NCBI GenBank assembly: GCA_016867415.1
Contig: VGJO01000003.1
Location: forward strand, 1-37,489
Reading direction: 5' to 3'
Source: Candidatus Harrisonbacteria bacterium
GTDB lineage: Bacteria > Patescibacteriota > Minisyncoccia > UBA6257 > UBA11618
DNA length: 37,489 nucleotides
The notes under the pieces are model-generated. The model was not told the DNA's origin. It made no database searches and saw nothing but the letters and a program-made list of their open reading frames with translations. Positions 27,072-37,489 of this stretch are shown in pieces (the first letter of the stretch is position 1; the number at the start of each line of letters is the position of its first letter). The position numbers were made by a program, and so were the translations under genes.

Positions 27072-28097
27072 TTAGAGAGATAAATTCTCCGCTTCTTCAT
27101 ATCGAAGCCGTTGCAAAACCATTTTTCCTCCATCTTTTTCCATCAATCTTGGTTGGGCAAAGTCATAAATCATAGTTGGATAAAAATCTATTTTTTTCAC
27201 CCCTTTCTTTGTAAAGAATATTTTAAGCGCCAATCCAGCCCGCGTTTCAAACGACCACATCTGATCAAACACGAAATTTCCCAAACTATAAAAAATATAT
27301 TTTCCTTTATATTGCTCCATGGTCTGCACCACATGAGGATGATGACCAATCACCATCTCCGCTCCCGCATCAATCGCCGACCGAGCAAACTCTGTCTGCG
27401 ATTTGTTTGGCTTCTCTTCGTACTCCCGCCCCGAGTGCATTGAGACAATCACAATATCCGCCTGCACTCTCGCCGCCCGCACCGCCTCCTGCATTTTCTC
27501 TATCCGCATAAACGCCGTCCCCGCCCTGACCCTCCCCGCTTCATAGACCTGCGGCACCACATCTGGATCATTGTATGCTAAAAATGCAAATCTGATTCCC
27601 TTAGTAGTAATAATCACCGGCCGATTTGCCTCTTCACTATTTCTTCCGGCTCCCACATATTCAATCCCCACTTTATAAAGAGCCTCAAAAGTATCAAGAA
27701 GTCCTTTCTTACCAAAATTAGGCACATGATTATTAGCAAGCGATAAAATCGAAAATCCCGCCTCTTGCAATGCTTCAGCCGCCTCCAGATCCGCCCGAAA
27801 ACTCATCTCATAAGGCCGCACCGGCTCGCCCGGCGTAATTGACGTTTCAAGATTTCCAAAAGTAATATCCGCCCCTCTAAGAAACGATTCTGTTTTTCGA
27901 AATGGATAATCATACCCATATTGCTGCATCCTTTTTCCCACTGTCCGCGAAAGCATCACATCCCCCACCGCTACCATTGTCACTTCCGCCTCAACCTCCT
28001 CTTTTAAAATTCCAGGCTTTATTTTCGTTTCCTCACTAAAAGAAAAAAGGGAAATTATGATAAGAACAGAAAGAATAGAGATAGAGTTTTTTTTCAT
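27072..28097 (-). CDS. CapA (PGA_cap) family metallophosphatase-fold protein
   Basis: AVGDVMLSR, GNLET, LANNH, SMHSGREY, IGHHPHVVQ, YSLGNFVFDQ. Confidence 0.93.
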   Translation of the reverse strand: MKKNSISILSVLIIISLFSFSEETKIKPGILKEEVEAEVTMVAVGDVMLSRTVGKRMQQYGYDYPFRKTESFLRGADITFGNLETSITPGEPVRPYEMSFRADLEAAEALQEAGFSILSLANNHVPNFGKKGLLDTFEALYKVGIEYVGAGRNSEEANRPVIITTKGIRFAFLAYNDPDVVPQVYEAGRVRAGTAFMRIEKMQEAVRAARVQADIVIVSMHSGREYEEKPNKSQTEFARSAIDAGAEMVIGHHPHVVQTMEQYKGKYIFYSLGNFVFDQMWSFETRAGLALKIFFTKKGVKKIDFYPTMIYDFAQPRLMEKDGGKMVLQRLRYEEAENLSL

Positions 28098-28137
28098 TAA
28101 AAGCTATCTTTGACTATTAATTAAACCCTTGTTTTCC

Positions 28138-28206
28138 AATTGGCGGTGAAATTATATCCTTTGTACGAACCTTTTTCGAGCGGAAAATGAACTGACCCGC
28201 CCCGCC
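28138..28206 (+). repeat. Site A: putative left junction with a recombinase-tail-like sequence
   Basis: AATTGGCGGTG identical to 37360..37370, then GTACGAACCTTTTTCGAG..TGA (VRTFFERKMN*) and CCCGCCCCGCC as after site B; spacing is 1 nt longer than in B/C/D. Confidence 0.6.
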
Positions 28207-28306
28207 ACTGCCTTGCTTCGCTCGGCAACACCAAAGAAAAATGTCTCTTGCTTTTTTGGATTTGCGCGCGACCAATTTTTTCTTCTAAAAGGATGATAAC
28301 ATTTTT

Positions 28307-28496
28307 GCGGTCGTTTTTGATTGATGTTCGAACTTTCTTTGAGCAGAACCCCGACTAAGGAAACCGCCCCGCCGCCGCTCAAAAGCAGGCGGGCAAAAAT
28401 TCCTTCCCCCCAACCCCCTTCCTTTTTGCCCGCCTGCTTGGGCTTCGCCCTGAAATTTTTTTGGCGAACAGATTTATCGGCGGGATTGGAGCGCGT
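28307..28496 (+). repeat. Left 190-bp inverted repeat (site B, tail coding sequence, 17-bp-stem hairpin)
   Basis: Reverse complement of 35432..35621 with 2 mismatches by manual comparison; 28305..28358 reads LRSFLIDVRTFFEQNPD*. Confidence 0.95.
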
Positions 28497-28503
28497 GCCA
28501 ATA

Positions 28504-28818
28504 TCATTGGCGCGCCTCCTTCGGCGACTTAAAAAATAAAACTGATACTACTAAATCTACAATAGACCAAAAGAAATGTCCAAAGTAGAGAGGGTTGATC
28601 GGATTAAAAACGATTGCGATAACGATCATGGTCAGCATCCATCTCTTATTTTTCTCTTTGTGATATAGATACACTGAGAATGCGGCCGCCCCAAAGATCA
28701 CAAGCTTAAGAGCTTGATAGAAAAAGTAAGGCCATACCGGGATTACTGCGACAAGTAATGCTATGGTCGCTATCTTCGAAAAAAGTTTTCGATATTCAGC
28801 TTGTTCTTTGGTAACCAT
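28504..28818 (-). CDS. DUF6804-like small multi-TM membrane protein
   Basis: PYFFYQALKLVI...IAIVFNPINPLYF..FWSIVD motif pattern; 104 aa. Confidence 0.75.
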   Translation of the reverse strand: MVTKEQAEYRKLFSKIATIALLVAVIPVWPYFFYQALKLVIFGAAAFSVYLYHKEKNKRWMLTMIVIAIVFNPINPLYFGHFFWSIVDLVVSVLFFKSPKEARQ

Positions 28819-28826
28819 AAGTATTT

Positions 28827-29906
28827 CTACGACCTCTCCAAATTTGTAAACTTATCATAATAGGCAAGCTCTTCTTTTGAGATCGATGGTTGAAATTTAC
28901 TCATAGCTTCCAAAAGCAACCTTTCGTCAATAAAACTTTTGTCTTGCGCGACAGCTAGACGAGCGGCCTGTGTGACAATAAGCTCGATGTCCGAACCAAC
29001 GTAGAACTCTGTTTTTTTTGACAATTTGTCGAAGTCAATTCCCTTGTCATAAGGTCGTCCGGATAGGAAAATCCTAAACATATCCTTTCTTGCCTCAAAG
29101 TCTGGCGGTCCAACAAAAATTCGTTTATCCATTCTGCCGGATCTCATAATGGCCGCATCGATCATGTGGGGTCTATTTGTTGCTCCAACGACCAAAATCT
29201 TATTTGCCCCAGCATTGTTGAGCTGAAGCAAAAACTCGTTGATCTCTTCTTTTTTAATATCAGCTGAGGAAGTTAGCTCTTCTCTCTTTGGTATAAGACC
29301 CTCGATTTCATCAATAAAAACAATAGCCGGAGATTGCATCTTCGCCATCTCAAATACTTTCGCAATATTACCTACTGCACCGTGAACCCACGGCGTGGCA
29401 ACCGATGAAGGGTTGAGCTCAAAGAAATTGTATCCCAGTTCTTCAGCCAATTTTTTGACAATAAAAGTTTTTCCACATCCCGGAGGACCATAAAGTAATA
29501 TGCCATTGGGGATAGAGAGTTTAAATTTTAAGAACTTCTCCGGATTTTTTAGGGGCTCTATGACTTCACTAATCAAAAGGGCTTTGAGTCCCTGCATGCC
29601 TGCAACACAATCAAAACCACGCAATGTGGTGAGACTATCGATAATATCGGTTATCTTCTCATGTGAGTGGACATTTATGACCACACCAAGATATTTTTTA
29701 TTCTCATGATCAATCGTCACAAGATCATATCTTTTACCTCGATCAATAACTTCCTCTGGTCGAATATTGGTGAATAGATATAAATATTTTCCGTCAGAAA
29801 GCTCGTAAACTTCTGTGAAAAAGATACGTTCTACGCGACCTTTAATTGTGAGGTCATCCCTCACCTTGAATCCGTTATGTAAAATTGGTTTAGTTGATGT
29901 TGTCAT
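28827..29906 (-). CDS. Classical-clade AAA+ ATPase (single Cdc48/FtsH-like module)
   Basis: Walker A GPPGCGKT, Walker B IVFIDE, SRH ATNRPHMIDAAIMRSGRMD; ~95-aa unknown N-domain. Confidence 0.93.
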   Translation of the reverse strand: MTTSTKPILHNGFKVRDDLTIKGRVERIFFTEVYELSDGKYLYLFTNIRPEEVIDRGKRYDLVTIDHENKKYLGVVINVHSHEKITDIIDSLTTLRGFDCVAGMQGLKALLISEVIEPLKNPEKFLKFKLSIPNGILLYGPPGCGKTFIVKKLAEELGYNFFELNPSSVATPWVHGAVGNIAKVFEMAKMQSPAIVFIDEIEGLIPKREELTSSADIKKEEINEFLLQLNNAGANKILVVGATNRPHMIDAAIMRSGRMDKRIFVGPPDFEARKDMFRIFLSGRPYDKGIDFDKLSKKTEFYVGSDIELIVTQAARLAVAQDKSFIDERLLLEAMSKFQPSISKEELAYYDKFTNLERS

Positions 29907-29935
29907 AAATTTTTCTTATCGTCTTTCATAAAAAA

Positions 29936-30508
29936 TTATTGTGGAGTGCAGTTGGCATCTAGGAAATTGTTATAGGTATCAATCTGACTGTCGAAGGCCT
30001 TTCTTCTTTGATCCCAACTGTTTGCGACAGTAATAAGTCTTTGGCGTTCAGTATTATAGCGATCTACCCTAGAGTTGTAATTGTCTACTGCATACTCATT
30101 ATTTTCATCGACATACATTGCCTCAATGGCGACCTTTTCAGCCTTATTTGCGGCAATTTGTCGATCCAAGGTATCACTCTCGGTAGCCAACTGGGCTTCC
30201 GTAGATGCATTCGGTTTTAACTGCATTGCTCTGTTGTAATTAGAATCAGAGCATCGAAATGTTTGACCGCCTTCTGACAAGAGGTTATTGGAATTTGTAC
30301 CGCCAGAAGATGTGTTGGTTGAGGTTGAGGAGCCGCTATCAGACCAAATTATCCATCCAAAAAAGAGAATCACGCTAGCAATGATCAGAATTTTTTTCCA
30401 ATTATATTTACTTTTTTCTGATAGAGGTTTCTCACGATTAATTGTACCCGTTTTTTGAGGGGTATCCTTATCTAAAAAATCTGTATCAAATTTAAGATGG
30501 TCTGACAT
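29936..30508 (-). CDS. Single-TM protein with extracytoplasmic coiled coil and Cys pair
   Basis: TM ILIIASVILFFGWIIW, Ser/Thr linker, heptad-like region bounded by FRC...ANC. Confidence 0.8.
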   Translation of the reverse strand: MSDHLKFDTDFLDKDTPQKTGTINREKPLSEKSKYNWKKILIIASVILFFGWIIWSDSGSSTSTNTSSGGTNSNNLLSEGGQTFRCSDSNYNRAMQLKPNASTEAQLATESDTLDRQIAANKAEKVAIEAMYVDENNEYAVDNYNSRVDRYNTERQRLITVANSWDQRRKAFDSQIDTYNNFLDANCTPQ

Positions 30509-30514
30509 ATAATT

Positions 30515-31984
30515 TTATCCACTAAATACTGCGCTCAAAATCCAGATGCCTATAATCCCGATAATGGCGTACTGCCAGTACTTCTGCCACTTATGCAGTT
30601 CCAGTTTGCCTAAAAATGAATAACTCCCATTGCCATGATTTTCTACGGTGTAACGTGCAATTGGAATAACTGGTACAAAGAGTAGGACAAAATAGAGAGT
30701 ATCGCCGTAAATCCTAGTTCCACATCCATTAAGAGTGAACATACTAGGCGCACTTGAGATTGGTTTGCCATGTTTAGCTGTTCTCTCTTCTAGCTTCTGT
30801 TTTAGTTCTTGTAGAATCTTTTTCAATTCCAAATCAGTATCGCTGTTATAAATTGCTTGGTTGATTTCTTCTATAGCCCTGTCCGATTTACCCGCCTTTA
30901 CTTTCTGTAAGATTGGGTCAAGAACTTTGTTGTATGCTTCCTCTTTTGTTTTATATGCAAGATTGCTCTGTAGGGTCGCAACATCTGCTTGGACTTTATT
31001 TTTAGAACTCTCTGTGCCAGAAATTTCCTCTGCGATCTTAGCTAGTCCCAGTGCAACCTCGGTTTCATTTAGATCATTGTGTAGATCAATACTAAGACTC
31101 CTTATCGCAGTTGCGGCCCTATCTCGCATTACCTTTGTTTTACTGTCGTTATATAATCCAAGATCGATTAATTTATTTAATTCAGATCGAATTAATCCTA
31201 TGAGTTCTTTTATGGTTTTCTTCTCTTCCTTATCAAGGGTTCCATCCTCGCTGACCTTCAACTTTTCCAATTTTTCAACCGCAATACTAATCGCTTGATA
31301 AGCCGGTCCCAAAACACTTTTCTCAACTTTTTGACCTTTGGCCGAAAAGACCTTCTGAAATTCGTTAATATAATCGCTGTGTTTATGGAGATGATACAGT
31401 TCAGTATAAATGTCAGTCAGGTATTCAACTACATGGCCTTTGAAATCAGAAACAATATCTTCACTGGCTATTTGCTCATCGTGGAGTTTGTATACTTTAG
31501 AGAAAGATGCCCAGAATTTATCTGAATCGACCAACTCTTTCCAGGCGATCAGAGAATTTTGTAGATATTCTTTGTTGTCTTCGACAGCAAGCGTAAGACA
31601 ATACAAAATTGCTAAATTCTTTTTATAAAAGAAAGCTTTTGTGCTTTGACCTTCAGCCGCCTTTTGCCAAACACGAATGGCATCGAGATAGTTCTTTTGC
31701 TTGAGTAGTCCTAAAGCCTGTTCATCAATGCTGTCTGCGATCTGAATCCAAAAGAAATACTCCTTGATCTTCTTCTTTGGAGCTTGAAGTCGTTGCAGGG
31801 CCTCCTTGACTGCGTCCTCAGTTCGAAAATCTTTGAACAGACCGACATCTAAATCATAGCTTGGAACATCATCTACTCTTAAGCGATTAATAATTTCCTT
31901 TGAACGTTTGAGGATATCCTTTTCGCTGGCCGAAATATCCAGTCCCAGAATGTGATATGCGTTGTTTTTGAGTGTATGTGACAT
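30515..31984 (-). CDS. J-domain-like (HPD-less) helical-repeat protein with C-terminal membrane anchor
   Basis: NAYHILGLDISASEKDILKR matches J helices I-II and EALQRLQAPKKK resembles the helix III-IV junction; no HPD; TPR-like helices; C-terminal NGCGTRIYG..YFVLLFVPVIPIARY plus TM helix. Confidence 0.7.
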   Translation of the reverse strand: MSHTLKNNAYHILGLDISASEKDILKRSKEIINRLRVDDVPSYDLDVGLFKDFRTEDAVKEALQRLQAPKKKIKEYFFWIQIADSIDEQALGLLKQKNYLDAIRVWQKAAEGQSTKAFFYKKNLAILYCLTLAVEDNKEYLQNSLIAWKELVDSDKFWASFSKVYKLHDEQIASEDIVSDFKGHVVEYLTDIYTELYHLHKHSDYINEFQKVFSAKGQKVEKSVLGPAYQAISIAVEKLEKLKVSEDGTLDKEEKKTIKELIGLIRSELNKLIDLGLYNDSKTKVMRDRAATAIRSLSIDLHNDLNETEVALGLAKIAEEISGTESSKNKVQADVATLQSNLAYKTKEEAYNKVLDPILQKVKAGKSDRAIEEINQAIYNSDTDLELKKILQELKQKLEERTAKHGKPISSAPSMFTLNGCGTRIYGDTLYFVLLFVPVIPIARYTVENHGNGSYSFLGKLELHKWQKYWQYAIIGIIGIWILSAVFSG

Positions 31985-31988
31985 ATAT

Positions 31989-34502
31989 TTATCGCGTTAT
32001 ACCCGAAAGGTTATCTTTAATTTTCTCTTGATCATCGGATGGGAGCAAGAGTGACAAATTGCGGACACACCGTTTCAGTTCGTCCACATCGCCAAGTTCA
32101 ATTGCTTTTCTACCTTTTTCTATGTAATACTTTGCCTCTCTTTTGTTGATAAAGGTTGGATTACTATCAACAATTTTTTTGAAGTGATGTACCCAAGTTA
32201 CTGGGTTAGAAAAAATAGCTTTTGAACTTAACTCTTTTATTTGCTCATTGATACGAATCAGTAGTGATTTATCGTTATTGGCAATAGCTTTCTCTCCTTC
32301 TTCTTTAAGTTTATTTAACTGATCGTTATTTGCGGTTCTGTCCTTCTCGTCCGCATAATCACTAATGATACTTTGTGTGTCTTGGATACCGTCTTTAAAC
32401 TCTTTTACTAACTGGGGCATCTCTTTCTCTTTTTCAATTTTATCCAAGGCAATTTTTAGATCTTTAATCTGTTTATTTGCCTTCATTTTTTCATCTTCGT
32501 CCACAGGAGCATTATTAACACTTGTTTGAGCAGATTGGATGTTATTGTCAATTATTTTTCTTTCGTCGGGCGAGAGGTTTTCTGAAATAGCTTTCGCTCT
32601 TTCTTTTTGAGTCTCAAGATCTTCCTCAATATTTTTAAGCTCAATCGTTTCGTCATGAGAGGTCGAACGAGCATTAACAGTGAGGTCAATCAGTGGGATA
32701 TAAGCCGTAACAAACACTTCTCGTGATTCGTTCACGACAACAGTTAGTTCCAGCGGCGTTCCCTCGGGGAGATCATGCGGCAAATCCTTCCCATTAATAC
32801 CCACCTTACATAGAAACCCATTACGATCTGGCATGTCAGATTCACCCTCAACCACTATAATATCTAACTCATTTTCCTCGCCCCTCTTCAGCTTTCTTGA
32901 TGTTTTGTAATCAGTAAGAAATCTTTTAATGGGGAGCATTGAACCTTTATCAAAAACTCTTTCGCAAATATTTACTGCCACGTTTCTTGTATAATCTTTT
33001 TGCACCACAACAATACCAACAGAATGTGGTAGGGGGGCGCCAGATACCGATAAGCCGTGAGTAATTGTGAATGAATCAGGGTCAATCGGAACAGAATTAC
33101 CTTGTTTGTCAAAGAGATATAACCAATAGACATTTGGTTTATTTGGTTCGACTGCAACCGTATCAAAGAACTTGCCGTTTTTTAGTTTGATTTTTTGACC
33201 ATTATAAAAGCCACTGTCAGATTGAATTTGTATATAATATTCCTCTTCTGATTCTTCCAGACTCTCGATGATCCCGCTGGCTGTTTGTTCCGTATCAGAT
33301 GTAAGGGATTCATAATTTAAATCAATAGATCGAGTTCCTTCCTTGAGTTTTTTGCCATCACTTTCCATAAACTCTTTTGGAATTTTCTGACCGATACCGA
33401 ACACACAAGCGCCTCTCGCAACTACAGTAAGAGGATCAACTGATGCATCAGTGGTGATTTTGAGATCAGCTTCAATCCTTTCTCGAATATAAGGAATCTG
33501 CGTCGGTCCACCGACAAGGATTACTTTTGCAACAGCACCGGCCTTGATACCAGCGTCTTTCAGAGTTTCCTTTGAGAGTTCTATAGTGCGATCAATCATT
33601 GGCTTGATCAATTTCTCAAAGTCTTTTCTTGTAAAATTAACGGTGAGAAAAATCTCCTTGTCATAATCGTCCTTCCCGATATTTTCCACCACGATTGAGG
33701 TTTTATCATATTCAGATAGCTCAATTTTAGCGGTCTCGGCAAAAAACTTTAATTGAGAAAAAGCACTCCTGTATTTTTCATTACTCCTATTAAAGTTTTT
33801 GATAGAAAACTTTTCTAAAATTTTCGGTACAATCACTTTATCAACAATTTCCAAGTCAAAGTTTTTGCCACCGAGAAAATTATCGCCATTATGTCCAAGT
33901 ACCGAAAGTGCTCGATCTTTGGAGGCGATCAATGCAACGTCAAACGTACCACCGCCAAAATCATAAATAAGCCAATTCTCATTCTTGGTATTAGTGAAGC
34001 CGTAAGCGATGGCGGCGGCTATGGGTTCTTGTAGTAACACCACATGTTTAAATCCGGCGAGGTTGCCCGCTCGCTTGGTTGCTTCCGACTGAAGTACCGA
34101 GAAAGCGGCTGGAACAGTGATCACGGCGGCCACCGTGCTGAAGTCTGGATACTTTCTTAAAATATCCTCTTTCAAGCTCTTCAGAATTTCGGCTGAGATT
34201 TCTTCCGGGCCCATGTCCACGTTGGCTCTCTCAAAGTGAAACTTTTCCGAAGTACCCATTAACCGCTTAACTTCAGGTTTGTAGTTCTTAATCTCTTCTT
34301 CCGATGCGTCCTTATAGAAACTTTCGTATGCTTTCTGGCCGACCACTTTATTTCTTGCCTTGTCGAAACCAAAGACGGATGGGGTATATTCTACGCCTCC
34401 CGGTTTCTTAACGATTTCAATATTGCCATTCTTATTAATTGCAACGGATGAATTCGTTGTGCCAAGGTCAATACCTATTTGAATATTTTGTTGGTTGACC
34501 AT
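31989..34502 (-). CDS. Specialised Hsp70 (DnaK-family) protein, 837 aa
   Basis: IGIDLGTTNS, TVPAAF, QEPIAAAIAYG, YDFGGGTFD, LGGKNFD, LVGGPTQIP; ~110-aa insert after the ATPase domain; divergent substrate-binding domain and long helical tail. Confidence 0.95.
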   Translation of the reverse strand: MVNQQNIQIGIDLGTTNSSVAINKNGNIEIVKKPGGVEYTPSVFGFDKARNKVVGQKAYESFYKDASEEEIKNYKPEVKRLMGTSEKFHFERANVDMGPEEISAEILKSLKEDILRKYPDFSTVAAVITVPAAFSVLQSEATKRAGNLAGFKHVVLLQEPIAAAIAYGFTNTKNENWLIYDFGGGTFDVALIASKDRALSVLGHNGDNFLGGKNFDLEIVDKVIVPKILEKFSIKNFNRSNEKYRSAFSQLKFFAETAKIELSEYDKTSIVVENIGKDDYDKEIFLTVNFTRKDFEKLIKPMIDRTIELSKETLKDAGIKAGAVAKVILVGGPTQIPYIRERIEADLKITTDASVDPLTVVARGACVFGIGQKIPKEFMESDGKKLKEGTRSIDLNYESLTSDTEQTASGIIESLEESEEEYYIQIQSDSGFYNGQKIKLKNGKFFDTVAVEPNKPNVYWLYLFDKQGNSVPIDPDSFTITHGLSVSGAPLPHSVGIVVVQKDYTRNVAVNICERVFDKGSMLPIKRFLTDYKTSRKLKRGEENELDIIVVEGESDMPDRNGFLCKVGINGKDLPHDLPEGTPLELTVVVNESREVFVTAYIPLIDLTVNARSTSHDETIELKNIEEDLETQKERAKAISENLSPDERKIIDNNIQSAQTSVNNAPVDEDEKMKANKQIKDLKIALDKIEKEKEMPQLVKEFKDGIQDTQSIISDYADEKDRTANNDQLNKLKEEGEKAIANNDKSLLIRINEQIKELSSKAIFSNPVTWVHHFKKIVDSNPTFINKREAKYYIEKGRKAIELGDVDELKRCVRNLSLLLPSDDQEKIKDNLSGITR

Positions 34503-34511
34503 AGTAATAAA

Positions 34512-35036
34512 TTAATGGTTGCTTAGTAAAATTATCTTCGCCTTGCGAACGACCTGACCTTTAAGCATGATTGTAGGCTCGACAGTTTCCTTCACGATCG
34601 ACTCCGGAAGCGTAGGGTCTTTCTCTACAGATAAGATATCGAGATTAAGCCCGTCATTGTATTTGTGGTTCTTGTAGTCCACAATCTCGATATCGTATTT
34701 TTCTAGGTAACGCCTTAACTTTTGTATAGAATTTTCTAGACCTTTTAACTGATTCTCTGGTAAACTCGAAGCAGATTTGGTGATACGTTGCTCGATACGC
34801 CACACTTCTATAGCAAGATCAGTAATCTCATTGGCCTCAATAGTCACTGTTACAAACTTAGGGGCTACTGCAGATTTAATTTCCTCTCTAATCTTTAAAA
34901 ATAATTCTTCGAACTTATCGGCGCCGCTGGACTGATGAACGCCCTTGCGTGAAAGGAGATACACAAAAGCAAGGATTAAAAGAGCTCCTGCGACGGTGAT
35001 TGCTACGACAACTGGGTTTGTAAATAAATTGCTCAT
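34512..35036 (-). CDS. Membrane-anchored GrpE-like nucleotide exchange factor
   Basis: N-terminal TM, coiled coil, GrpE-type C-terminus LEKYDIEIVD...IVKETVEPTIMLKGQVVRKAKIIL; directly upstream of Hsp70. Confidence 0.72.
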   Translation of the reverse strand: MSNLFTNPVVVAITVAGALLILAFVYLLSRKGVHQSSGADKFEELFLKIREEIKSAVAPKFVTVTIEANEITDLAIEVWRIEQRITKSASSLPENQLKGLENSIQKLRRYLEKYDIEIVDYKNHKYNDGLNLDILSVEKDPTLPESIVKETVEPTIMLKGQVVRKAKIILLSNH

Positions 35037-35040
35037 AATT

Positions 35041-35250
35041 TTATTTTATTAAATCATCAAGCGACACTCCGAGCGCATCCGCGATTTTTTTGACTGTTTC
35101 AATAGTGGGATTGGGAGTTGATCCAGCTTCAATTTTGGCGATTGTATGAAAAGCTAAATCCGCCTTTTTTGAAAGCTGATCCTGCGAGATACCGAGTTTG
35201 TTTCGGTATTTTTTTATGTTGTCTGCGATTGTGGATTTTTCCTTTGACAT
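35041..35250 (-). CDS. XRE-family HTH transcriptional regulator
   Basis: NIKKYRNKLGISQDQLSKKADLAFHTIAKIEAGSTPNPTIETVKKIADALGVSLDDL. Confidence 0.95.
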   Translation of the reverse strand: MSKEKSTIADNIKKYRNKLGISQDQLSKKADLAFHTIAKIEAGSTPNPTIETVKKIADALGVSLDDLIK

Positions 35251-35272
35251 ATTCGTATAACTTTACTATGAT
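35244..35272 (+). promoter_or_regulatory. Rightward sigma70 promoter toward the recombinase, overlapping the HTH start codon
   Basis: TTGACA(35244-49)-17 bp-TATGAT(35267-72); inverted repeat TATAACT(35256-62)/AGTTATA(35273-79) straddles the -10. Confidence 0.65.
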
Positions 35273-35309
35273 AGTTATATAGTGTTACGATTACTGCTTA
35301 TCGTTAGTT

Positions 35310-35338
35310 AGTATATGAAATTTTTATTATTTCGTCAA
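35310..35338 (-). promoter_or_regulatory. Leftward sigma70 promoter for the HTH-cargo operon
   Basis: TTGACG(35338-33)-17 bp-TATACT(35315-10). Confidence 0.65.
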
Positions 35339-35431
35339 ACACAATTAGGGAGTTCCTTGTCGTTGCCCGCGCATGGGTTGGGTGGGGCAAGGGCAACATC
35401 AACTCTAGCGGCGCATTTTGCTTTACAAAAT

Positions 35432-35621
35432 ACGCGCTCCAATCCCGCCGATAAATCTGTCCGCCAAAAAAATTTCAGGGCGAAGCCCAAGCAGGCGGGC
35501 AAAAAGGAAGGGGGTTGGGGGGAAGGAATTTTTGCCCGCCTGCTTTTGAGCGGCGGCGGGGCGGTTTCCTTAGTCGGGGTTCTGCTCAAAGAAAGTTCGA
35601 ACATTAATCAAAAACGACCGC
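35432..35621 (-). repeat. Right 190-bp inverted repeat (site C, tail coding sequence, hairpin)
   Basis: Inverted copy of 28307..28496 (188/190). Confidence 0.95.
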
Positions 35622-35750
35622 CAAATTGTACTTTTTGCGAAATCGTAAGATGTTGCCTCGGCGCTTCGCGCCTCGGCATGGTATTTTTCCGCAATTTTGA
35701 AGGCATTTTTGAAATCCAAAAACAAGGTGCGGTCGGCAATGCGGAAGTTC
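35570..35750 (-). repeat. Inverted silent copy of the recombinase C-terminal coding region with an alternative tail
   Basis: 35749->35570 reads NFRIADRTLFLDFKNAFKIAEKYHAEARSAEATSYDFAKSTIWRSFLINVRTFFEQNPD*; the first 44 aa are 37/44 identical to recombinase codons 37237..37368. Confidence 0.92.
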
Positions 35751-35865
35751 CTGTGCGACAGAACAGAGAAAACGAAGTTTTCAAAACCAATCTTTTTTCT
35801 TTCGCCTCTGGCGAAAGGTTGAGCACATTTTTCTTTGATTGCCCAAAAGCTAACTTCAAAACAAT

Positions 35866-37413
35866 ATGGACAACTTAAATTTACAAACCAAAAAGTTTTT
35901 CCTCTATGCTCGCAAATCTACGGACGAGCCAGAGAGGCAGGTTTTAAGTATTGAGGCGCAAATGTTTGAACTGCGAGAATTTGCCAAAAAAGAAGGCTTG
36001 AATATCGTCCGTGAATTTGTGGAAAGCAAAACCGCCAAAGAACCGGGCAGAGAAATTTTTAACGAAATGGTGGCGAGCATAGAGAAAAATGAAGCCGAGG
36101 GAATTTTAGCGTGGCACCCTGACCGCCTTGCGAGAAATAGTATAGACGGCGGACGAATAATTTATTTGATAGATACTGGCAAAATATCCGCGCTAAAATT
36201 CCCGACTTTTTGGTTTGATCCGACACCACAGGGAAAATTTATGTTGTCCATTGCTTTTGGGCAATCAAAATATTATGTGGATAATCTTTCGGAAAACATA
36301 AAGAGGGGTATTCGCCAGAAGCTGCGAAATGGAATATGGCCCGCTTGGGCGCCACTGGGCTATATAAACGACAAAAACGCTCGCTGTATCACTGTTGATA
36401 AAGAAAAAGCAAAATATATCAAGCGGGCCTTTGAAATGTACGCCACTGGCGAATACCCCCTCGCTCAAATCCGAAAGATTATCAATTCCTTGGGCTTGGT
36501 TGGCAAGAAAGGCAAGATGCTTTCGGTCTCAAATTATCAATATATGCTCAAAAATAAAATCTATTACGGAATTATTGAATACAACGGCGAAATGTATGAC
36601 GGAAAGCATGAACCGATTGTCACAAAGAAACTTTTTGATTCCGTTCAAGAAGTGATGATGAATAAATCTAAACCGAAAACGCCAAAATTGAAACCTTATG
36701 TGTATAGAGGATTTTTCCGTTGCGGAGAGTGCGGTTGCTTCATCACGACCGAAACACAAAAGAGTCATAACTATTTGCGATGCACTAAACGGAAAAATCC
36801 TTGCACGCAAAAATATGTCCGTGAAGAAATCATCACTTCTCAAATAAAGGAAGAAATCAAAAAAGTTTCTTTGTCTTCCGCTTGGGCAAATGCTTCAATC
36901 AATTATTTTGAAAACGAGAAAATGAAAATTGCCCAAGCGGAAAGCTCTTTCGCCCAAAAAGCGAGGCGGGAGCTTGTAGAGATAGAAACGAAACTTGATC
37001 GCTTGCTGGATTTGCAACTGGACGGCAATTTGTCGCAAGCGGAATATACCGCCAAAAAGCACAAGCTCATTCTCGCTAAAAAAGATTTTGAAGAAAAAAT
37101 CATCGCTTTTGGGCGAAAAAGTAATAATCGGTTCGAACTTGCCATAAACTTCATAAAAGAAGCCAACCAAGCCGAAAAATGCGCTCAACAAGAAAATCCC
37201 GAAAGGATTCGGGATTTTCTCAAAAAGATTGGTTCGAACTTCCGCATTGCCGACCGCACTTTGGTTTTGGATTTCAAAAATGCCTTCAAAATTGCGGAAA
37301 AATACCATGCCGAGGCGCTTTGCGCCGAGGCTAATTCTTACGATTTCACAAAAAGTGAAAATTGGCGGTGTGCTTTCGAAAAAATTCGAACTGATTTCGC
37401 CCAAAATTTGTAG
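35866..37413 (+). CDS. Large serine recombinase (resolvase + recombinase + zinc-ribbon/coiled-coil domains)
   Basis: YARKS catalytic Ser, SIEAQ, WHPDRLARN, APLGY, GKHEPIV, Zn ribbon CGECG...YLRCTKRKNPC, coiled coil; 515 aa. Confidence 0.97.
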   Translation: MDNLNLQTKKFFLYARKSTDEPERQVLSIEAQMFELREFAKKEGLNIVREFVESKTAKEPGREIFNEMVASIEKNEAEGILAWHPDRLARNSIDGGRIIYLIDTGKISALKFPTFWFDPTPQGKFMLSIAFGQSKYYVDNLSENIKRGIRQKLRNGIWPAWAPLGYINDKNARCITVDKEKAKYIKRAFEMYATGEYPLAQIRKIINSLGLVGKKGKMLSVSNYQYMLKNKIYYGIIEYNGEMYDGKHEPIVTKKLFDSVQEVMMNKSKPKTPKLKPYVYRGFFRCGECGCFITTETQKSHNYLRCTKRKNPCTQKYVREEIITSQIKEEIKKVSLSSAWANASINYFENEKMKIAQAESSFAQKARRELVEIETKLDRLLDLQLDGNLSQAEYTAKKHKLILAKKDFEEKIIAFGRKSNNRFELAINFIKEANQAEKCAQQENPERIRDFLKKIGSNFRIADRTLVLDFKNAFKIAEKYHAEALCAEANSYDFTKSENWRCAFEKIRTDFAQNL

Positions 37414-37414
37414 A

Positions 37415-37451
37415 GCGGGCGGAATTCCCCCCAGACCCTCCTTCCGCCCGC
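37415..37451 (+). repeat. GC-rich hairpin with C-rich loop after site D, homologous to the hairpin in the 190-bp repeats
   Basis: GCGGGCGGAA-TTCCCCCCAGACCCTCC-TTCCGCCCGC vs GCAGGCGGGCAAAAA-TTCCTTCCCCCCAACCCCCTTCC-TTTTTGCCCGCCTGC. Confidence 0.8.
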
Positions 37452-37489
37452 CCGCAGAAGCGACCCTTTCGGATTGAAAAAACTGCCAA

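What the first reader, a model, noticed from the sequence alone, without database searches (positions are those of the whole stretch)
35618..37368. Recombinase gene enclosed by an inverted copy of its own 3' end
Seen: 35618..35750 is the reverse complement of 37236..37368 (roughly 85-90% by eye, ungapped, 37/44 aa). Patchy similarity continues toward the start codon: AACCAATCTTTT at ~35785 and TTGAGCACATTT at ~35819 match 37222-37233 and 37177-37188. Those patches are interrupted by small hairpins (CTGTGCGACAG, GAAAACGAAGTTTTC, TTTCGCCTCTGGCGAAA). Inference, three options: (i) a self-inverting recombinase module whose two ends both supply the same half-site; (ii) the mRNA leader pairs with the gene's 3' end as a ~130-bp cis duplex controlling expression; (iii) ssDNA fold-back builds a recombination substrate, as integron attC sites do.
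Basis: partly seen in the sequence, partly recalled or inferred. Interest (0 to 1): 0.8.

Follow-up and report, generated by a model that had tools for sequence, protein, structure and literature searches.

The report
Recombinase element with two inverted attachment sites
The inverted copy of the recombinase gene's end is a second, intact copy of the mobile element's own attachment site, a layout shared by many related elements that sit at tRNA genes in tiny uncultured bacteria and carry defence-like genes.

Summary
Window 35594-35750 is the reverse complement of 37236-37392 (157 nt, 86%; 134 nt at 91%), far above chance. The gene is a large serine recombinase (LSR). The repeat is not a one-off remnant. 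All 3 LSR paralogues of this genome have it, as do 63 of 73 testable homologous loci elsewhere, 46 of them at 95-100% identity. The right arm normally ends 4-6 nt inside a tRNA gene, mostly tRNA-Ser. The left arm runs in frame past the same GCGG core into the gene's native last ~15 codons, a stop and GC hairpins (region R). R recurs, inverted, on the far side of a cargo cassette. So attL = B|core|R, attR = tail|core|tRNA, and the upstream copy is an intact inverted attP (tail|core|R). A TTCGAA motif lies 5 bp further from the core in R than in the tRNA, as published for attP versus attB. A flipped isomer, flipped cargo, tandem arrays and chimeric repeats exist. What the second attP does is inferred: alternative integration or inversion, self-regulation, or an RNA duplex. 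I found no description in print. It is a new variant of a known kind.

The parts
28141..28306 (+). Relic R region (Rc) with its own TGGCGG core at 28141-28146; remnant attL-type site of an older element
   Evidence: Aligns with Ra, Rb and R2, with a TACGAAC version of the TTCGAAC motif at about the same offset and a GC-rich block; its distal part resembles the distal part of the R region of the C2 element
28299..28496 (+). attL of the window's element: core GCGG at 28307-28310 followed by R arm (Rb copy 1); left flank is unrelated
   Evidence: 98% identical over 198 nt, inverted, to 35432-35629; same layout as attL in 14 relatives
28504..35250 (-). Cargo cassette of seven minus-strand genes: DUF6804 (28504-28818), AAA ATPase like IetA (28827-29906), 190 aa, 489 aa, Hsp70-like 837 aa (31989-34502), GrpE-like (34512-35036), HTH_3 regulator (35041-35250)
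   Evidence: ORFs; Pfam; PADLOC IetA E=1.7e-32; a homologue of the HTH gene is present in 15 of 19 cargo cassettes
35244..35338 (.). Two face-to-face promoter-like sites: plus strand 35244-35272 (TTGACA-17-TATGAT) pointing through the inverted attP to the LSR gene; minus strand 35338-35310 pointing to the HTH gene
   Evidence: Consensus scan; the plus-strand site recurs in 27 of 33 loci. These are consensus matches only
35432..35617 (-). R arm (Rb copy 2) of the inverted attP: last 15 codons of a native LSR end, stop at 35570-35572, hairpin 35489-35545 and a T-run terminator on the minus strand
   Evidence: (I3)
35618..35750 (-). Core (CCGCCA, 35618-35623) plus the inverted copy of the LSR tail, i.e. 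the P arm of the second attP (left arm of the reported repeat)
   Evidence: its nearest relatives are listed
35751..35865 (+). Spacer to the start codon: degenerate continuation of the inverted copy, interrupted by three small hairpins
   Evidence: Read; the spacer is 114-115 nt in most close relatives; no promoter-like match here
35866..37413 (+). Large serine recombinase gene, 515 aa
   Evidence: Resolvase, Recombinase and Zn_ribbon_recom domains; the last invariant residues among 19 homologues are G456 S457 N458, exactly where the repeat begins
37236..37368 (+). LSR tail (P arm, residues 458-501) and core TGGCGG at 37363-37368 (right arm of the repeat)
37369..37489 (+). Ra: a native-type last 14 codons, stop at 37411-37413 and a GC hairpin, running to the contig end. 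Most likely the attL-side R arm of the next element in a tandem array that continues on contig C7
   Evidence: 37363-37489 equals the reverse complement of C7:1-127 exactly, which is the assembler's word length. C7 then has an inverted copy of its own LSR's tail, that LSR, and tRNA-Ser. L014 shows the same array on one contig

Best explanation
The upstream inverted copy is a complete second attachment site (attP) of a compact integrative element driven by a large serine recombinase. Each attP has three parts: a P arm (the last ~44 codons before the core), a GCGG core, and a P' arm (region R: the native last 14-15 codons, a stop and terminator-like GC hairpins). Integration recombines the attP at the gene's own 3' end with the 3' end of a tRNA gene. 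Only the tRNA side of the target is conserved. The result is attL = flank|core|R at the far end of the cargo and attR = tail|core|tRNA at the gene. The inverted attP just upstream of the gene stays intact. In this window the element runs from 28307 to 37368. Its right junction is with the R arm of a second element rather than with a tRNA, because two elements sit in tandem next to tRNA-Ser on contig C7. These points are shown: the anatomy, its conservation, the crossover position, the attP-type versus attB-type motif spacing, and that the copy has been joined to a tRNA at least once. The rest is inferred. An excised circle would carry two identical inverted attP sites that split it into a recombinase segment and a cargo segment. 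Either site can then serve for integration, and exchange between inverted sites flips the cargo or the recombinase segment. Because both P arms are alike, attP x (tail|tRNA) would regenerate the same two kinds of site, so such a flip would need no directionality factor. The copy lies between a conserved promoter-like site and the start codon. It is therefore also well placed to act as a binding site through which the recombinase limits its own expression. The 86-91% identity in this window, against 95-100% in most loci, is best explained by a chimera of two element lineages.
For: LSR domains. The repeat is present at 3 of 3 LSR paralogues in this genome: 157 nt/86%, 78 nt/100% and 137 nt/99%. 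Of 160 related loci, 73 were testable (at least 400 nt upstream and a complete tail); 63 of the 73 have it: 18 in the 100% bin, 28 at 95-<100%, 16 at 85-<95% and 1 at 70-75%. Of 57 such loci with at least 100 nt downstream, 50 have a tRNA overlapping the end of the right arm: 48 Ser, 1 Asp, 1 Trp. Junction sequences in 8 loci and consensus in 14 loci show attR = tail-GCGG-tRNA, upstream copy = tail-GCGG-R, attL = unrelated flank-GCGG-R. Mean pairwise identity is 0.31 for the B arm and 0.75 for the P arm. 27 loci have both repeat pairs, and 23 of the 27 have both at 95% or more. TTCGAA lies at +12 after GCGG in the tRNA (72 of 84) and at +17 in R (66 of 74). This matches the 5-bp inward shift of the zinc-ribbon motif in attB relative to attP (PMC3783163, passages read). 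L102 has the copy fused to tRNA-Ser and the gene keeping its native end. Homologous cargo genes lie in opposite orientation in L034 and L079. Tandem arrays occur in L014, L039 (a record titled complete genome) and L095. Chimeric repeats match arms found as homogeneous pairs elsewhere: L022 and L025. No residue after N458 is invariant or near-invariant in 19 homologues, so the repeat covers a protein-level unconstrained extension.
Against: No excised circle, empty site or population-level inversion was observed. The only runs holding this DNA are kept as short-word contigs that break at the repeats. The flipped isomer is 1 locus against 50, not what two equivalent sites or a free toggle would give. 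Published rules say LSRs do not recombine site pairs other than attP x attB without a directionality factor (abstract of PMC3783163). The repeats (78-219 nt, plus 100-433 nt of R) are much longer than the ~50 bp an att site needs, so their identity needs gene conversion or another constraint. In this window the mismatches cluster in the last ~50 nt before the core, so this particular copy may bind the resident enzyme poorly. The counts are not independent: the two collections overlap, with at least four contigs listed in both by identical length and two pairs of identical rows.
Confidence: 0.7

Rival explanations
1. Neutral relic. An ancestral head-to-head duplication or array collapse left the 3' end of a second recombinase gene upstream, and gene conversion between the inverted arms keeps them alike. 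It has no function of its own.
For: The arms are far longer than an att site needs. The degenerate continuation toward the start codon looks like a decaying larger duplication. Chimeric arms show passive reshuffling. The flipped isomer is rare.
Against: The layout is retained in lineages whose recombinases are only 46-60% identical, in genomes of about 0.5-0.8 Mb. 10 of 73 testable loci lack the repeat; of the 5 of these that entered the tree, 3 form one clade from non-CPR MAGs. The copy was used at least once (L102).
Confidence: 0.13
2. RNA-level control is the selected function. The recombinase mRNA starts upstream of the copy, so its leader pairs with its own 3' coding end (about 130 bp, or about 330 bp when the native end is present). 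This gives a duplex that limits translation or invites cleavage.
For: A promoter-like TTGACA-17-TAnnAT overlaps the HTH start and points through the copy, in 27 of 33 loci. Only 7 of 121 loci have a promoter-like site between copy and start codon, and that spacer is about 9-18 nt in one clade.
Against: It does not explain why the repeat ends exactly at the tRNA junction. It does not explain why R is repeated around the cargo at 93-100%, or why the copy can be found joined to a tRNA. Pairing would tolerate wobble and mismatches, yet 46 of 63 pairs are 95-100% identical. Promoter calls are consensus matches only, and no RNA data were available (one search listed no RNA run).
Confidence: 0.1
3. 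The recombinase gene with its two arms is by itself an insertion-sequence-like unit. Its circle junction is a long palindrome, and it inserts next to any R or tRNA half-site. The cargo cassettes are separate.
For: The unit is found between R and tRNA, tRNA and R, R and R', and between two inverted tRNA-Ser genes. The reading frame runs into the right arm, as I recall is usual for insertion sequences (recalled, no call).
Against: The R arm at attL matches the R arm beside the unit at 95% or more in 25 of 27 loci, as expected if cargo and recombinase move together. No R|tRNA empty site was sought or seen.
Confidence: 0.05
4. A single-stranded fold-back of the two arms builds the recombination substrate, as at integron attC sites.
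For: Long, perfect inverted arms would fold in single-stranded DNA.
Against: Serine recombinases cut both strands of duplex sites (established knowledge, recalled). Recombining a hairpin stem with a duplex tRNA site would leave hairpin-capped chromosome ends (my reasoning). No single-strand replication or transfer genes were seen in the cargos examined.
Confidence: 0.02

Closest known systems
Phage-type large serine integrases (A118/LI, Bxb1, phiC31)
   Same: Same three domains. Crossover at a short core. The distal motif lies 5 bp closer to the centre on the host side than on the element side.
   Different: attP lies inside the enzyme's own 3' coding end. A second inverted attP is kept upstream. 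The host site is conserved on one arm only, the tRNA (B arm identity 0.31). Arrays imply use of tail|tRNA or flank|R sites as targets. No directionality factor was identified.
Hin-type invertible segment of Salmonella (recalled, no call)
   Same: The recombinase gene lies inside a segment bounded by inverted crossover sites.
   Different: Hin is a small serine invertase with short sites and, as I recall, an enhancer. Here the enzyme is a large serine recombinase, the arms are 78-219 nt, one arm is coding, and the element is an integrative island. Inversion is documented only as one flipped relative.
Yeast 2-micron plasmid FLP/FRT layout (recalled, no call)
   Same: The reconstructed circle would have two long inverted repeats, each holding the recombinase target. 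They would split it into two unique segments, one of which encodes the recombinase. Both cargo orientations exist.
   Different: FLP is a tyrosine recombinase on a replicating plasmid. Here no circle was observed and no replication gene was seen in the cargos scanned.
Tn3/gamma-delta resolvase res site between divergent genes (recalled, no call)
   Same: A serine recombinase target lies in the control region between the recombinase gene and a divergently transcribed gene, which invites autoregulation.
   Different: res is a three-subsite resolution site for a small resolvase. Regulation here is only inferred from position.
SSV1-type archaeal integrases with attP inside the int gene (recalled, no call)
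   Same: Integration rewrites the integrase reading frame because attP is inside it.
   Different: Those are tyrosine integrases whose gene is split in two. Here only the last 14-15 codons are exchanged, and a spare copy of the native end sits upstream.

Membership tests
Large serine recombinase (serine integrase) | N-terminal resolvase catalytic domain with the serine motif | tested here: met
   PF00239 E=8e-20. R16, S18, T19 and D20 are invariant in 19 homologues. That S18 is the nucleophile is inferred from the recalled family motif.
Large serine recombinase (serine integrase) | Recombinase domain and zinc ribbon domain C-terminal to the catalytic domain | tested here: met
   PF07508 E=1.1e-16 and PF13408 E=6.1e-8
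Large serine recombinase (serine integrase) | Coiled-coil insertion in the zinc ribbon domain | not tested
   No structure prediction or coiled-coil analysis was run
Large serine recombinase (serine integrase) | Distal recognition motif 5 bp closer to the centre in attB than in attP half-sites | tested here: met
   TTCGAA at +12 in the tRNA arm (72 of 84) and +17 in the R arm (66 of 74); rule read in PMC3783163
Large serine recombinase (serine integrase) | attB made of two related half-sites | tested here: not met
   The arm opposite the tRNA shows no conservation: mean pairwise identity 0.31 in 14 loci
Large serine recombinase (serine integrase) | Unidirectional reaction reversed by a directionality factor | not testable with these tools
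   Needs an assay. The conserved HTH gene is only a candidate regulator.
tRNA-targeted integrative island | attL and attR in direct orientation sharing a core with the tRNA 3' end | tested here: met
   50 of 57 loci have a tRNA at the right arm
tRNA-targeted integrative island | Empty site in related genomes | not tested
   No search for unoccupied tRNA-Ser sites in close relatives was made
Serine invertase switch (Hin/Gin type) | Small serine recombinase with C-terminal helix-turn-helix | tested here: not met
   515-aa protein with Recombinase and zinc ribbon domains
Serine invertase switch (Hin/Gin type) | Both orientations present in one population | tested here: inconclusive
   Only short-word contigs were available. 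Across loci there is one flipped recombinase segment (L102) and one cargo type found in both orientations (L034 vs L079).
2-micron-type inverted-repeat plasmid | Autonomously replicating circle | not tested
   No circular contig was sought systematically. No replication gene was seen in the cargo proteins scanned.
2-micron-type inverted-repeat plasmid | Tyrosine recombinase | tested here: not met
   Serine recombinase domains
Integron attC-type folded single-strand site | Tyrosine integron integrase acting on a folded strand | tested here: not met
   The enzyme is a serine recombinase. Folding as such was not tested.

The most novel reading that the evidence does not exclude
Because the two P arms are identical, recombination between the inverted attP (tail|R) and the junction at the gene's end (tail|tRNA) regenerates one site of each kind. 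A normally one-way large serine recombinase would then work here as a reversible, factor-free invertase of its own gene. It would toggle between a form with the native C-terminus and terminator and a form fused to the antisense tRNA. In the free circle it would flip the cargo as in the 2-micron plasmid. The family would then be a natural self-limiting LSR switch that needs only one conserved half-site, the tRNA T-arm and acceptor end, in its host.
Probability: 0.2. Interest if true: 0.85.

Novelty: new variant of a known kind. Interest (0 to 1): 0.68.

Why it matters
It defines a widespread family of very small recombinase-driven islands (about 3-9 kb). By the record titles they occur in many Patescibacteria/CPR and Elusimicrobiota MAGs, with recombinases up to 94-96% identical to this one. 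Their cargo looks like defence genes: GmrSD/Mrr/Schlafen, AAA_15 with HNH, IetA-like. These are lineages whose means of gene exchange are poorly known. The layout, attP inside the enzyme's own coding end plus a conserved inverted second attP, is not in the descriptions of serine integrases that I could search. If the inverted site is active, it offers a natural route to reversible recombination without a directionality factor. A target defined by a single tRNA half-site across phyla is of interest to those who use serine integrases as tools. There is also a practical point. In 47 of 160 related loci the contig ends less than 400 nt upstream of the gene, and this genome's assembly breaks at three such inverted junctions. 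These repeats probably fragment CPR assemblies.

Tried and rejected
Read evidence. The look-up of sequencing runs found 24 runs, 6 holding at least half the sampled words, none on record as RNA and all kept as contigs. Laying X1, X3, X5 and X6 on 28000-37489 gave contigs that stop at the repeats. The one joint, 28438 to 35490, lies at mirror positions of the R hairpin, and I take it as a mapping ambiguity. Depth is higher over the recombinase and R than over the cargo, which shows only that related elements abound in those samples. There is no verdict on inversion or excision.

Complex prediction. LSR residues 268-470 with the HTH protein, both as alignments, returned no verdict, so nothing follows about a directionality-factor role.

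Rfam. No match up to E=0.1 in 27900-37489.

Viral contigs. 5 of 38 pattern matches encode a relative, and all 5 matches begin within 130 nt of the start of the stretch fetched. There is no sign that the family is phage-borne.

Own taxonomic family. Only 2 of 17 genomes, this one included, have a match at E<=1e-30. The one distant relative there (L010, 29% identity) has no such repeat.

The cargo between the two elements of L014 has no match in this genome, so the piece linking C3 to C7 is not in the bin.

I looked for a lineage holding both isomers by searching L102's flanks against all loci and found none.

The filter (query matched to residue 495 or beyond) leaves out the ~60%-identity clade, L061-L092. 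That clade has the repeat but is not in the 73.

The tree is the quick one. 8 of the 73 eligible rows with internal stops were dropped, and the 3 paralogues of this genome were added (68 rows).

Literature. Searches, with passages of 10.1101/2020.12.28.424599 and PMC10083194, turned up no description of this layout. Subscription journals and supplements were not visible, so this is not proof of absence.

Statements about Hin, the 2-micron plasmid, Tn3 res, SSV1 and small directionality factors are recalled, not from calls.
Full report
THE OBSERVATION. The window is a whole contig (C3) of a 631-kb, 12-contig genome. Positions 35594-35750 are the reverse complement of 37236-37392: 157 nt, 86%, ungapped. 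The core stretch 35617-35750 vs 37236-37369 is 91% over 134 nt. The match scores 188 bits against at most 41 in 100 dinucleotide shuffles. The enclosed gene, 35866-37413, encodes a 515-aa protein with Resolvase, Recombinase and zinc-ribbon domains, so it is a large serine recombinase (LSR).

WHERE THE IDENTITY STOPS. Identity falls at TGGCGG (37363-37368; reverse complement at 35618-23). After it both copies run on in frame for 14-15 codons to a stop and then GC-rich hairpins. These stretches, Ra after the gene and Rb after the copy, are only weakly alike. Rb recurs at 98% over 198 nt at 28299-28496, inverted relative to 35432-35629. It brackets a 7-kb block of seven minus-strand genes.

THE SAME ANATOMY AT THE OTHER TWO RECOMBINASES OF THIS GENOME. 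The paralogues on C7 and C2 are 54% and 46% identical to this one. Each has an inverted copy of its own tail just upstream: 78 nt at 100% and 137 nt at 99%. Their right arms end 5-6 nt inside tRNA-Ser(gct) and tRNA-Thr(cgt). TGGCGG is the reverse complement of the tRNA's CCGCCA end. Their left copies continue in frame into a native-type end, a stop and GC hairpins. On C2 that R region recurs at 89%, inverted, 1 kb further out, around two small membrane-protein genes.

RELATIVES ELSEWHERE. Scans of species genomes and of metagenome contigs each returned 80 loci. The recombinases are 54-96% identical. By the record titles, most MAGs are Patescibacteria/CPR or Elusimicrobiota. A few carry other labels, which may be binning errors.
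- 121 of the 160 loci have the repeat.
- 73 loci have at least 400 nt upstream and a complete tail, and 63 of them have it. 18 fall in the 100% bin, 28 at 95-<100%, 16 at 85-<95% and 1 lower. 50 of the 63 arms are 120-139 nt.
- Of 57 of these loci with at least 100 nt downstream, 50 have a tRNA overlapping the end of the right arm. 48 are tRNA-Ser of four anticodons, one Asp and one Trp.
- 27 loci also show the outer pair (R, cargo of 1.3-5.8 kb, inverted R). In 23 of them both pairs are 95% or more identical.
- The two collections overlap, so these counts contain duplicates. At least four contigs appear in both by identical length, and two pairs of rows are identical.
- A quick tree finds the repeat across the sampled family, including the deep C2 and C7 branches. 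Five rows lack it, three of them in one clade from Verrucomicrobiota and Bacteroidota MAGs (rows with internal stops dropped; the ~60% clade excluded by my filter, though it has the repeat).

WHAT THE THREE JUNCTIONS SAY. In 8 loci read by eye and 14 close relatives aligned on the core, the pattern is the same:
- right junction: tail-GCGG-tRNA
- upstream copy: tail-GCGG-R
- far junction: unrelated sequence-GCGG-R

The only letters common to all three are GCGG (sometimes GGCGG or TGGCGG), so the crossover lies there. These are attR, an intact attP and attL. Joining the left half of attR to the right half of attL reconstructs exactly the upstream copy. The arm opposite the tRNA is not conserved (mean pairwise identity 0.31, against 0.75 for the P arm). 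The host site is therefore defined by the tRNA half alone.

A TTCGAA motif sits at +12 after GCGG in the tRNA (72 of 84) and at +17 in R (66 of 74). Rutherford et al. (PMC3783163; abstract and passages read) report that the zinc-ribbon motif of attB lies 5 bp nearer the centre than in attP. This is an independent sign that R is a P' arm and the tRNA a B' arm.

IS THE SECOND attP USED? Four observations bear on this.
- L102 has tRNA-Ser joined to the copy while the gene keeps tail|core|R. This is the product expected from integration through the second attP or from inversion of the recombinase segment.
- The cargo genes of L034 and L079 are homologous but lie in opposite orientation relative to the recombinase. 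L095 carries a second HTH gene on the plus strand just downstream of the recombinase, which I read as a flipped downstream element.
- L014, L039 (titled a complete genome) and L095 are tandem arrays, in which the distal recombinase's tail is joined to the next element's R.
- L025 (and L121, an identical row in the tree) has the unit between two identical inverted tRNA-Ser genes. This is unexplained.

Against frequent use: the usual form outnumbers the flipped one 50 to 1.

THIS WINDOW'S SPECIAL CASE. The last 127 nt of C3 equal the reverse complement of the first 127 nt of C7, and 127 is the overlap seen at other contig joins. C7 then reads inverted Ra, core, inverted copy of the C7 tail, C7 recombinase, tRNA-Ser. 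L014 has this array on one contig, at 88% to C3 35548-37450 and 71% to C7 40-1723, with a 4-kb cargo between inverted Ra arms. So the right arm of the reported repeat is joined to the next element's R, not to a tRNA.

The low identity of the pair here has a likely cause. The gene's tail is 99.2% identical to the L020 arms. The copy is closest to the L026 copy (93.2%) and the L034 arms (92.5%), against 91.0% to its own gene. L022 and L025 are clear chimeras of two arm types that occur as homogeneous pairs elsewhere. Homologous deletion between related recombinase genes in an array would produce exactly this. That is inference.

PROTEIN VERSUS DNA CONSTRAINT. In 19 homologues the last invariant residues are G456, S457 and N458, and nothing after them is even 90% conserved. 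The repeat begins at the last base of codon 457. The arms therefore cover a C-terminal extension that is free at the protein level but kept identical at the DNA level.

REGULATORY POSITION.
- A small HTH_3 gene is in 15 of 19 cargo cassettes, usually first in the operon that diverges from the recombinase.
- A promoter-like site overlaps its start and points through the inverted attP toward the recombinase, in 27 of 33 loci.
- Only 7 of 121 loci have a promoter-like match between the copy and the start codon, and in one clade that spacer is about 9-18 nt.
- So the copy probably lies in the recombinase's leader. Bound recombinase could block its own transcription, or the leader could pair with the 3' end.

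These are consensus matches, not mapped transcripts.

MECHANISM AND ODDS. I put 0.7 on the reading that the copy is a conserved, recombination-competent second attP of a dual-attP integrative element. Within that reading, alternative integration or inversion and self-regulation are the likely uses. The rivals are a neutral relic kept alike by gene conversion (0.13), RNA pairing as the selected function (0.10), an autonomous recombinase-plus-arms unit (0.05) and a single-strand fold-back substrate (0.02). The boldest reading not excluded is a reversible, factor-free self-inversion, possible because both P arms are alike (0.2).

COMPARISON WITH WHAT IS KNOWN. The enzyme is a member of the large serine recombinases (domains and motif spacing met), with one departure: the host site is conserved on one arm only. 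The element is a tRNA-targeted island. The layout only resembles other systems. The Hin segment has its recombinase inside inverted sites. The 2-micron plasmid has repeats that each hold the target. Tn3 res is a site in the control region. SSV1 has attP inside its integrase gene. All four comparisons are recalled, and membership fails for each (see the membership table). Seven literature searches and two papers checked for passages gave no description of this layout. Supplements and subscription journals were not visible.

NOT DONE OR FAILED. Raw reads were not available. No search was made for empty sites or circular contigs.

Noticed in passing
window 28504-35250: The cargo is an operon of an HTH regulator, a GrpE-like protein, an 837-aa Hsp70-like ATPase, two proteins without clear families, an AAA ATPase matching IetA models (E=1.7e-32) and DUF6804. 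This may be an undescribed defence-type cassette. Cargos of relatives include GmrSD/Mrr/Schlafen and AAA_15 plus HNH proteins.
   Followed up: partly
window 28141-28306: A third, relic R region with its own TGGCGG core directly abuts the attL core of the present element. How the rest of that older element was lost is open.
   Followed up: partly
window 35489-35545 and 37415-37452; R regions of L013, L028, L029, L069 and others: R regions carry a GC-stem hairpin whose ~20-nt loop is conserved. The loop occurs in either orientation relative to stem and flanks in different elements: G-rich in some, its reverse complement in others. There is no Rfam match.
   Followed up: partly
L025 5669-7587 (L121 is an identical row in the tree): The recombinase with its two arms sits between two identical, complete, inverted tRNA-Ser(gga) genes. 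The duplication stops at the tRNA 5' end, and no R or HTH gene is nearby.
   Followed up: partly
G000 contigs C5 end/C9 start and C6 end/C11 start; C11 119-300 and 2549-2730: Two more contig breaks show the same exact 127-nt inverted overlap as C3/C7. Each lies just after a tRNA gene (Leu-gag, Asn-gtt) and has R-like GC hairpins. C11 has a 182-nt inverted pair (98.9%) around 2.2 kb without a recombinase.
   Followed up: partly
loci L013-L172: In 47 of 160 loci the contig ends less than 400 nt upstream of the recombinase start, so these repeats seem to break short-read assemblies. Recombinases up to 94-96% identical to the window's occur in MAGs labelled as different phyla, by record titles. 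This means either recent transfer or binning errors.
   Followed up: no
window 37299-37340 and 35646-35687: Within both arms a short GGCGC-NNN-GCGCC hairpin lies between two GCCGAGGC repeats. The stem is kept while the loop differs between the copies (TTT vs GAA). A similar hairpin sits in the arms of the ~60% clade.
   Followed up: no
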